Below, in pieces: positions 39,409 through 42,051 of a stretch of 64,000 bases of DNA. Under the pieces are notes generated by a model. The model searched no databases, was not told the DNA's origin, and saw nothing but the letters and a program-made list of their open reading frames with translations. The stretch lies in the sequence record KX130864. One strand, written 5' to 3'. This stretch comes from Shigella phage SHBML-50-1. Within the stretch, counting starts at the first letter, position 1. Every line of letters begins with the position of its first letter. The position numbers and the translations under genes are program-made.

Positions 39409-40269
39409 TTACACCGCCATCTTTCCTTTAATAGGAGGGTGTGATTCATAGTTGTTAAGAACAAAATTATGTGGCTTTGCGAATTGACTCAACCAAAATA
39501 CCTGCGATTCTGTGTCCCATTCATCAAATTCATCTGGAAATTTTAATTGCAATTCGCATAAATCCATAGGTTCACGACATAAAATTTCTTTACATTGTTC
39601 TACGTGATTCATATAGATATGAGTATTACCACCAGAAAATATCAAATCTCCCGGAATAAGATTACACATCTTAGCTACAATATGAACTAACGTAGCATAT
39701 GATGCAATATTAAATGGAAGACCGAGGAAAACATCTACCGAACGTTGATACCACTGAAGGTCAAGGTATCCATTACGCACATTAAACTGATAGAACATAT
39801 GACAAGGCGGTAATGCCATATATTTAAGTTCAGCTGGATTCCACGCAGAAACAATTTGACGCCTATCATTTGGCAGTTTTTTAATACGATCAATAACTTC
39901 TATAATTTGATCTACACCGCCAAAATCACGCCACTGTTTTCCATAAATTGGACCAAGTTCACCGCTATGGTATCCTAAATCTTTTGCTTGATTTTCGTAA
40001 TTTTCATCCCAGACTGTTTTGCCTTGAATTAATGAATCATGTTGAATTAATCGCAAATCATTGACATTTGTGCTTCCTGATAAAAACCATATTAGCTCAG
40101 CAATGCATGCATTCCAGGCGAGCTTTTTAGTTGTTACTGCAGGAAAACCTTTGGTTAAATCCCAACGCAATTTAGTACCGAACAAAGCAATTGTTCCTGT
40201 GCCCGTTCGGTCATCGGTTTCATAGCCATTTTCAAAAATGTCTTTAATTAAATCTTGGTATTGTTTCAT
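39409..40269 (-). CDS. td: thymidylate synthase, uninterrupted
   Basis: 286 aa continuous ORF; active-site region PPCH; no group I intron. Confidence 0.95.
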
Positions 40270-40306
40270 TTAGTACCTTATATAAATTATAATACATTTT
40301 ATGAAG

Positions 40307-40660
40307 CTAAATAATCAACGGTTTAGCATCAAATTTTCTCTCAATTTCAGGCGTGAAATATAATTCTTTACCGCGTTTGGAAAAGCGACCAATAATATGA
40401 TAATTATTCTCATCAAACGTGATATTACCAATATCCATAGCTTTCAACCAAATATCGATATTTCTATCCAGCTTTATGTCAAAATTCCAATACGGAGAAC
40501 TATTACCGAAAATACTACAAGCGGATTCAGTGAAACAACTGCTATAAATCTTGTCTTTAGGAACTACTAATTGATAGACACCTTTAATAAACTGAGGACC
40601 CTGCCACTTTGGCTGTTTCTCATCTTTTTCTAATAGAATAGGGTAATAATTAAAATTCAT
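40307..40660 (-). CDS. hypothetical protein inserted between frd and td
   Basis: 117 aa ORF exactly filling the frd-td gap; weak SD; no recognisable motif. Confidence 0.55.
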   Translation of the reverse strand: MNFNYYPILLEKDEKQPKWQGPQFIKGVYQLVVPKDKIYSSCFTESACSIFGNSSPYWNFDIKLDRNIDIWLKAMDIGNITFDENNYHIIGRFSKRGKELYFTPEIERKFDAKPLII

Positions 40661-40679
40661 ATTTCCGCCGCGCGTTATT

Positions 40680-41638
<959 letters not shown>

Positions 41639-41691: not shown

Positions 41692-42051
41692 TTATATTAT
41701 CTCCCATCGAAAAGGGTCAGGAGCATATCCGATAGAGTTAATCATTTTAACTAAAGTTACCATTCCTTTGTTAACTGCTTGTGCGATTTCATCAAAAACT
41801 TCATCGCTATCATCATAAAGGTCATTAAAAAGTTCTAACACGTTCTTCTGAACTTTTAATTTATGACCAACAATCTCGCCTACAGTAAATTCGTTTCCGC
41901 CGATTCCAGTGTAAAACGTAATTACACCAGTTAACAGACTTTCGCGAGAATCTAGGTCATGTGATAAATTAATATAAGCCATCCCGGGTGCAGTTTTAAG
42001 TTGGCAACGAATTCTTACTTGGGTAATTCCGGTTACATGAATGTCGGACAT
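41692..42051 (-). CDS. hypothetical protein (frd.2)
   Basis: 119 aa ORF. Confidence 0.5.
   Translation of the reverse strand: MSDIHVTGITQVRIRCQLKTAPGMAYINLSHDLDSRESLLTGVITFYTGIGGNEFTVGEIVGHKLKVQKNVLELFNDLYDDSDEVFDEIAQAVNKGMVTLVKMINSIGYAPDPFRWEII

What the first reader, a model, noticed from the sequence alone, without database searches (positions are those of the whole stretch)
40307..40660. Uncharacterised 117-aa ORF inserted between frd and td
In T4 as I recall it, the frd stop overlaps the td start (ATGA), so the two genes abut. Here a 354-nt ORF fills the gap exactly, with its own SD and an AT-rich -10-like element (TATTATAAT) just upstream of td. The protein has no motif I recognise. 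The frd-td junction is a known insertion site in T-even phages, so this is a candidate accessory or anti-defence cargo gene.
Basis: partly seen in the sequence, partly recalled or inferred. Interest (0 to 1): 0.5.

Follow-up and report, generated by a model that had tools for sequence, protein, structure and literature searches.

The report
Conserved small gene between frd and td
This is a real, strongly conserved small phage gene of unknown function that sits between the dihydrofolate reductase and thymidylate synthase genes in most T4-like phages, including T2 and T6; T4 itself has lost it, which is probably why nobody has studied it.

Summary
The ORF is real: minus strand, 40307-40660, 117 aa, between frd (40680-41261) and an intronless td (39409-40269). 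T4 has the ATGA frd/td overlap and no such ORF.

It is not new. It is the hypothetical gene annotated "RB32ORF229c" (PHROG 1928), found at 90% identity or more in 361 phage records, including T2 and T6.

It is under strong purifying selection (dN/dS 0.01-0.06) and diverges about as slowly as frd.

Homologues at 30-60% identity lie directly after frd and before td in every other T4-like genus I examined. They often occur as tandem paralogues (X, Y), sometimes followed by a 68-aa gene (Z). So the family looks ancestral at this locus rather than foreign cargo.

My best guess, at low confidence, is a dispensable, non-enzymatic nucleic-acid- or partner-binding factor co-expressed with the thymidylate genes. 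An anti-defence role is untested and slow evolution argues against it. The -10-like element is at chance level and not conserved.

The parts
40307..40660 (-). Gene X: 117-aa member of PHROG 1928 (annotated 'RB32ORF229c'), with a predicted OB-like beta-barrel fold
   Evidence: ORF. PHROG 1928 at E = 3e-36. 100% identical to JLBYU31_256 and 97-100% identical to hundreds of Tequatrovirus records. dN/dS 0.012-0.06. AlphaFold pLDDT 92.4.
40680..41261 (-). frd (dihydrofolate reductase), the upstream neighbour on the coding strand
   Evidence: ORF. Annotation of the identical JLBYU31 and RB51 loci.
39409..40269 (-). td (thymidylate synthase), intronless, the downstream neighbour on the coding strand
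   Evidence: One uninterrupted 286-aa ORF. Annotation. T4 and T6 have the intron with I-TevI.
40661..40679 (-). 19-nt spacer between frd and X. It holds the G+C-rich CGCGCGGCGG (40674-40665, which runs over the SD-like GGCGG at 40669-40665) and the tail of a 3-codon mini-ORF, ATGAAATAA (40683-40675), that overlaps the frd stop codon
   Evidence: Sequence read directly. Conserved in T2 and in the Mosigvirus copies. No RNA structure.
40270..40306 (-). 37-nt spacer between X and td, holding the -10-like TATTATAAT (40294-40286) and an AAGG Shine-Dalgarno sequence for td (40279-40276)
   Evidence: A 30-nt piece that includes the -10-like element is missing from the Mosigvirus copies.
40675..40686 (-). 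Left copy of the flanking direct repeat, TAAATGAAATAA
   Evidence: the repeat finder family D2. Alignment with T4. RB51 record note 'flanked by 9 bp repeat'.
40261..40272 (-). Right copy of the flanking direct repeat, TAAATGAAACAA, which includes the td start codon

Best explanation
X is a genuine protein-coding gene of the frd-td transcription unit. It belongs to a family found only in T4-like phages (PHROG 1928).

Shown:
- In every genus I examined, the family sits directly after frd and before td. It occurs singly or as tandem paralogues X and Y, usually with overlapping start and stop codons.
- It diverges about as slowly as frd.
- T2, T6 and about two thirds of Tequatrovirus records have it. 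T4 and a few relatives have nothing there. Another 135 records have only an unrelated 68-aa ORF (Z).

Inferred, fairly confident: the family is ancestral at this locus, and the Tequatrovirus alleles are different retentions or losses of an frd-X-Y-Z-td array. T4's ATGA junction then arises by deletion between the 9-12-bp repeats.

Inferred, low confidence: the protein is a non-enzymatic, small OB-like beta-barrel. Its invariant Trp, Lys and Gly residues lie in the beta1-beta2 loop (KQxKW) and the beta4-beta5 hairpin (IGRFxKxG). This would form a binding face for single-stranded nucleic acid or an acidic partner. It would be made early with the dTMP-synthesis enzymes, and the phage can do without it on at least some hosts.
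For: Real gene: ORF; dN/dS 0.012 against T2 and 0.055 against PHB12; pLDDT 92.4 from a 24-sequence alignment.

Not in T4, but in T2 and T6.

Distribution: tblastn finds 361 records at 90% identity or more and 228 below 60%.

Synteny after frd and before td: IME523, Mexia, STML-198, Moon, F48, Potts1, Muldoon, L012. L013 shows frd-X-Y, but the contig ends before td.

Paralogue Y shares the motifs and the PHROG.

An frd-X-Y-Z-td array occurs in L012 and in Marfavirus.

X identity tracks Frd identity across genomes: 98/96, 92/85, 62/48 and 43/49 %.

G+C is 32% against 36% for the window.

Against: No binding or expression data exist, and I could not inspect the model's surface.

The Tequatrovirus and Mosigvirus copy differs from the copies in other genera. 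It has non-coding spacers on both sides and a flanking direct repeat whose left copy reads like a decayed td start (ATGAAATAA against ATGAAACAA). That is what an insertion with target duplication into a T4-like empty junction would leave. So re-acquisition in this lineage is not excluded.

Natural loss in more than 140 records shows it is not needed for the Frd/Td enzymes to work.
Confidence: 0.55

Rival explanations
1. Anti-defence or counter-defence accessory gene. X would neutralise a host immune system, for example one that attacks nucleotide pools, and would be kept or lost according to the hosts the phage meets.
For: It is small, lies in an early-gene region, and has no known function. 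Presence varies within one genus, with three alleles at the junction. The family is restricted to phages.
Against: Very strong purifying selection and a divergence rate like that of Frd. The same genomic slot across many genera, which is unlike a typical shuffled anti-defence cargo gene. No structural match to any named viral protein in BFVD. pI is neutral to basic, so it is not a DNA mimic.
Confidence: 0.2
2. Adaptor of the thymidylate cycle. X (and Y) would bind Frd and/or Td, or tether the dNTP-synthesis complex to gp32-coated or naked ssDNA at the fork. This would explain why the gene is always wedged between, and translationally coupled to, frd and td.
For: Strict synteny and overlapping start and stop codons with frd and td in most genera. 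OB-like fold. Co-divergence with Frd.
Against: T4 and the Z-only phages run the same enzymes without it. Synteny in T4-like phages is often just inheritance.
Confidence: 0.15
3. Mobile element or free-standing homing endonuclease, as annotated in BASEL phage Bas39. The cassette would have inserted itself at the frd-td junction with a target-site duplication.
For: It is annotated 'putative homing endonuclease' in two BASEL records: FriedrichMiescher (CDS table) and KarlGJung (hit H280). The cassette has 9-12-bp flanking direct repeats and non-coding spacers. T-even phages do carry seg and mob genes between core genes.
Against: No HNH, GIY-YIG, LAGLIDADG or any other Pfam hit for any of 24-29 family members. 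The invariant residues are W, G, G, K, G, with no Asp, Glu, His or Cys. At 115 aa it is shorter than T4's MobE (141 aa) and, from my memory, shorter than the other known Seg and Mob enzymes. It occupies the same slot in distant genera without repeats or spacers.
Confidence: 0.03

Closest known systems
PHROG 1928 / 'RB32ORF229c' hypothetical proteins of T-even phages (RB32, RB51, T6 and others)
   Same: It is the same gene. It is 100% identical to JLBYU31_256 and 97-100% identical to hundreds of deposited Tequatrovirus ORFs at the same locus.
   Different: Only the last residues differ. A 2-nt deletion makes this copy end KPLII instead of KPY. No function has been assigned to any member.
OB-fold nucleic-acid-binding domains (RPA, SSB, Teb1, RecO N-terminal domain, HIN, S1)
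Free-standing homing endonuclease genes of T-even phages (seg, mob)
   Same: A small ORF present in some T-even genomes and absent from others, lying between conserved genes. One database record names it that way.
   Different: It has no nuclease motif, no conserved catalytic residues and no Pfam match, and the gene is syntenic across genera.
PeSL cassettes (promoter-early stem-loop shuffling units of T4-type phages; PMC2839356, PMC4122927)
   Same: A variable ORF in a T4-like genome with short non-coding flanks, one of which carries a -10-like box.
   Different: There is no stem-loop in either spacer. The -35 box is TTGATT, not TTTACW. The promoter-like match is at chance level and is absent from the Mosigvirus copies.

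Membership tests
PHROG 1928 (phage protein family of unknown function) | Significant full-length match to the family profile | tested here: met
   E = 3.3e-36, residues 4-111 on profile positions 2-125 of 126. Paralogue Y and the Muldoon 135-aa protein hit the same PHROG.
PHROG 1928 (phage protein family of unknown function) | Position directly after frd and before td (a feature I observed, not a formal definition) | tested here: met
   Window and nine other loci from different genera or contigs.
OB-fold nucleic-acid-binding proteins | Five-stranded closed beta-barrel with a helix between strands 3 and 4 | tested here: inconclusive
OB-fold nucleic-acid-binding proteins | Binds ssDNA, RNA or oligosaccharide on the b2-b3 / L12 / L45 face | not testable with these tools
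   Indirect only: invariant W19, K95, G91 and G97 and near-invariant Q16, Y29 and F93 lie in those elements; pI is 7.7-9.4.
Homing endonucleases (HNH, GIY-YIG, LAGLIDADG, PD-(D/E)xK) | Catalytic motif or family profile match | tested here: not met
   Pfam gives no hit for X at E of 1 or less. The 24 members give only scattered chance hits. No Asp, Glu, His or Cys is invariant.
Dihydrofolate reductase (annotation in JLBYU31 and IsaacDaniel) | Match to the DHFR_1 profile (PF00186) | tested here: not met
   No Pfam or NCBIfam hit, whereas the neighbouring real frd genes in L012 and L013 carry PF00186.
Insertion with target-site duplication | Direct repeats exactly at both ends of the extra DNA relative to an empty site | tested here: met
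   TAAATGAAATAA at 40686-40675 and TAAATGAAACAA at 40272-40261. T4 has one copy. This is equally compatible with a deletion between the repeats.
Insertion with target-site duplication | A mobility function (transposase, integrase or endonuclease) in or near the cassette | tested here: not met
   X is the only ORF in the 414 bp and has no such domain.
PeSL mobile regulatory cassette | A stem-loop followed by an early promoter flanking the variable ORF | tested here: not met
   The spacers fold no better than shuffles (z = +1.6 and -0.2). No terminator-like site was found.
Known anti-phage-defence or anti-defence proteins | Sequence or fold match to a characterised member | tested here: not met
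   PADLOC gives nothing. BFVD matches are all uncharacterised proteins of T4-like phages. A new anti-defence family cannot be excluded this way.

The most novel reading that the evidence does not exclude
The X/Y family is a dedicated, previously unrecognised third component of the phage thymidylate module. It would be an OB-like adaptor that physically couples dihydrofolate reductase and thymidylate synthase, or tethers them to ssDNA or gp32 at the replication fork. That would be a detachable version of the DHFR-TS coupling achieved by gene fusion in protozoa. It would have been overlooked for 60 years because T4, the model phage, happens to have deleted it.
Probability: 0.1. Interest if true: 0.65.

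Novelty: already known. Interest (0 to 1): 0.3.

Why it matters
As a sequence feature this is ordinary. The ORF has been deposited as a hypothetical protein hundreds of times, going back to the RB32 record that gave it its name.

What the check adds:
- T4 is the exception, not the rule. Most T4-like phages of enterobacteria, including T2 and T6, encode one to three small genes between frd and td.
- The main one is as conserved as Frd and has a fold with no close solved relative.

That makes it a reasonable, cheap target for a knockout or pull-down in T2 or T6. It is also a reminder that T4-centred gene lists miss quasi-core genes. It does not open a long-standing question.

Tried and rejected
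- Pfam, NCBIfam and PADLOC on X gave nothing. Pfam on 24 members gave only scattered chance hits.
- PDB sequence searches with the single protein and with the profile gave only chance hits.
- An exhaustive HMMER search of 1.8 billion representatives gave 23 hits. Of these, 21 are proteins of 95-116 aa, and the two longer ones are repeat artefacts.
- A profile search of the 5.8-billion set gave only hypothetical proteins, nearly all on contigs that are too short to classify or that match T4-like phages in size or name. None was a fusion with another domain.
- The first AlphaFold run, with 4 sequences, was poor (pLDDT 64) and I discarded it.
- An HMM of the family against all six-frame ORFs of the window found no paralogue.
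- Rfam and RNA folding of the spacers gave nothing.
- Literature: there were no hits for 'RB32ORF229c', 'frd and td', or frd + Tequatrovirus. Two accessory-gene screening papers do not mention this locus. Repoila et al. 1994 is not held.
- Homing endonuclease and DHFR annotations: rejected (see the membership tests).
- PeSL cassette: rejected.

Full report
**1. Observation**

The window has an ATG-started ORF on the minus strand at 40307..40660 (117 aa). It lies between frd (40680..41261) and td (39409..40269), both also on the minus strand. Here td is a single 286-aa ORF with no intron.

In the T4 reference, td ends at 145112 and frd starts at 145109. The three-way alignment shows T4 lacking 414 bp that the window and RB51 have.

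- A 19-nt spacer (AATAACGCGCGGCGGAAAT) follows the frd stop codon. It carries a weak Shine-Dalgarno (SD) ribosome-binding sequence, GGCGG.
- A 37-nt spacer precedes td. It carries TATTATAAT and a good AAGG SD sequence for td.

The promoter-like match (TTGATT, 18 nt, TATTAT; 9 of 12) is one of 17 in the region, against 16.9 expected from shuffles. The 30 nt that hold it are absent from the Mosigvirus copies of the same cassette. I give it no weight. Neither spacer folds better than shuffled sequence, and Rfam finds nothing.

**2. Is it a gene?**

Yes.
- Against T2 the coding sequence has 15 synonymous and 1 non-synonymous difference (dN/dS 0.012). Against Mosigvirus PHB12 it has 28 and 10 (dN/dS 0.055). 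Against the metagenomic relative L013, dN/dS is about 0.13, with synonymous sites near saturation; for L012 they are saturated and no ratio could be computed.
- It matches PHROG 1928 at E = 3e-36.
- A 24-sequence alignment gives an AlphaFold model with mean pLDDT 92.4 and pTM 0.85.
- G+C is 32%, against 36% for the window.

**3. Is it new?**

No.
- The 561 bp around it are 100% identical to Escherichia phage JLBYU31 (Tequatrovirus gizh). They are 95-99.6% identical to several hundred Tequatrovirus records, of which 354 cover at least 80% of the query.
- RB51 annotates the ORF "RB32ORF229c hypothetical protein, flanked by 9 bp repeat". T6 uses the same name.
- T2 has the ORF intact, although its record leaves it unannotated.
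- Two other labels exist and both fail testing: "putative dihydrofolate reductase" (JLBYU31) and "putative homing endonuclease" (BASEL Bas39). There is no DHFR profile match, no nuclease profile match, and no invariant Asp, Glu, His or Cys in the family.

**4. Distribution and synteny**

tblastn finds the protein at 90% identity or more in 361 phage records, and at under 60% in 228 more. The distant hits come from Klebsiella, Salmonella, Citrobacter, Enterobacter, Serratia, Erwinia and other hosts.

In every distant locus I opened, the homologue lies directly after frd and before td, usually with overlapping stop and start codons:
- Kanagawavirus IME523
- Klebsiella phage Mexia
- Gelderlandvirus STML-198
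- Moonvirus Moon
- Marfavirus F48 and Potts1
- Muldoonvirus Muldoon
- metagenomic contigs L012 and L013 (L013 ends after Y, before td)

In many of these a second ORF of about 115 aa follows. Its translation carries the same motifs: LxxADxxQKKW, HG(L/F)Y and GRFxK(R/Q)GSEI. It hits the same PHROG, so it is a tandem paralogue, Y. Y has an insertion of about 19 residues in the first loop.

L012 and the Marfavirus phages have a third gene, Z (68-69 aa, PHROG 9550), before td.

The exhaustive HMMER search and the profile search found no member with a name, no fusion to another domain, and none identifiably outside phage contigs.

**5. The junction in Tequatrovirus has three alleles**

- A: X only. 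This is the window, T2, T6, RB32, RB51 and RB68; 361 records at 90% identity or more, including some Mosigvirus.
- B: empty. This is T4 and its laboratory derivatives, plus T4T, vB_EcoM_112, RB55, RB59, G2133, FL12, HY03, SG1, JEP6, G28 and FN.

So T4's abutting genes are the minority state. The allele does not depend on the td intron: T6 has X and the intron, the window has X and no intron, and G3F6 has Z and the intron.

**6. Inserted or ancestral?**

At family level the gene is ancestral to the slot. X's amino-acid identity to the window copy tracks that of Frd across genomes:

| Genome | X identity | Frd identity |
|---|---|---|
| T2 | 98% | 96% |
| PHB12 | 92% | 85% |
| L012 | 62% | 48% |
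| IME523 | 43% | 49% |
| Moon, F48, STML-198 | 31-34% | 47-49% |

That pattern is what co-inheritance gives. It is not what a recently imported cargo gene gives.

Within Tequatrovirus and Mosigvirus the picture is less clean. This copy, unlike those in other genera, has spacers on both sides. A direct repeat also bounds it: TAAATGAAATAA on the left and TAAATGAAACAA on the right.

Deletion between these repeats gives exactly T4's sequence. Insertion with duplication into a T4-like junction gives exactly this one.

The left copy can be read in two ways:
- as a decayed td start (ATG AAA CAA changed to ATG AAA TAA), or
- as the remnant of an ancestral overlapping frd/X start (ATGAAT...), pushed aside by about 20 nt that created X's own SD sequence.

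The bases just before td (GGTACTAAATG) also resemble the end of Z in L012 (GGGACTATG) and in Sf21 (GAACTAATG). This hints that allele A is an X-Y-Z array with Y and Z deleted. The match is too short to prove that.

I favour loss in T4, on outgroup parsimony and allele frequency, but I cannot exclude re-acquisition.

**7. What the protein looks like**

The confident model has strands at 6-12, 27-34, 62-64, 80-82, 86-96 and 99-104, and one helix at 68-76. That is the OB-fold order: b1-b2-b3-helix-b4-b5.

- Foldseek against the whole PDB gives nothing better than E = 0.28.
- Foldseek against BFVD finds only uncharacterised proteins of T4-like phages: Pectobacterium PM2, Serratia Muldoon, Erwinia Cronus and Aeromonas Ah1/phiAS5.

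Across X and Y the invariant residues are W19, G27, G91, K95 and G97. Near-invariant are L9, Q16, Y29, F93 and F102. These lie in the b1-b2 loop, at the start of b2, and in the b4-b5 hairpin. In OB folds those elements make the ligand face (established knowledge).

The proteins are neutral to basic (pI 7.7-9.4) and most are rich in aromatic residues. So they are not DNA mimics, and they have no plausible catalytic residues.

**8. Mechanism**

- Shown: a conserved, constrained, non-enzymatic-looking small protein encoded inside the frd-td unit, which many natural phages do without.
- Inferred, low confidence: it binds single-stranded nucleic acid or a protein partner through the conserved loop face, and acts with or near the nucleotide-synthesis and replication machinery made at the same time.
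- Rivals: an anti-defence factor, which is possible but which slow evolution and fixed synteny argue against; an Frd-Td or gp32 adaptor, which is attractive but untested; and a homing endonuclease or mobile element, which is essentially excluded.

**9. Verdict**

But the gene is not foreign cargo, and it has been deposited many times. Interest is modest.

Noticed in passing
window 40307-40315 (-): This copy lacks 2 nt (TA) that RB51, T2 and the Mosigvirus copies have. The C-terminus therefore reads KPLII* instead of the family's usual KPY*. Among the tblastn rows listed, only JLBYU31 aligns through these last residues.
   Followed up: partly
window 40675-40683 (-): A three-codon mini-ORF, ATG AAA TAA, overlaps the frd stop codon. 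It looks like a decayed td start, or possibly a decayed X start. It is conserved in T2 and in Mosigvirus PHB12, and with one base changed (TAG stop) in JQD51.
   Followed up: partly
window 40665-40674 (-): A G+C-rich decamer, CGCGCGGCGG, sits in the frd-X spacer of a 36% G+C genome. It is partly conserved (CGCGTGGCGG in T2, CACGTGGCGG in PHB12). It forms no hairpin, and its origin and role are unknown.
   Followed up: partly
window 39409-40269 (-), td: td has no intron, whereas T4 and T6 carry the I-TevI intron. Its C-terminal region of about 40 aa (...[39 protein letters not shown]...) differs sharply from the T2 sequence. This brings overall identity down to 89% and suggests a mosaic segment.
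   Followed up: no
window 41258-41638 and 41692-42051 (-): Two more ORFs lie between frd and frd.1 and are absent from T4. One is 126 aa (PHROG 8592, overlapping the frd start by 4 nt). The other is 119 aa (Pfam DUF7247, PHROG 3566). This is a second variable patch right next to the finding.
   Followed up: partly
L009 2305-2511 (Shigella phage Sf21) and 135 other Tequatrovirus records: The alternative allele at the same junction is a 68-aa ORF (PHROG 9550) with overlapping starts and stops. It has 79% homologues in Marfavirus. It also has 43% homologues in Phapecoctavirus phages, which by my recollection are not T4-like (not checked here). If so, it has moved between phage groups, unlike X.
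   Followed up: partly
L016 1271-1683 (phage T2, LC348380.1); L003 (JLBYU31); L019 (Bas39); L014 (JQD51): Annotation problems in public records. T2 leaves the intact ORF unannotated. JLBYU31 and IsaacDaniel call it dihydrofolate reductase. BASEL phages call it a putative homing endonuclease. In JQD51 the product names are shifted by one gene.
   Followed up: yes
NC_054942.1 (Shigella phage SH7), hit H188: Only residues 16-68 of the 68-aa ORF match, at 79%. There are two places in the record and no annotated feature under the match. It may be a decaying remnant at the junction.
   Followed up: no
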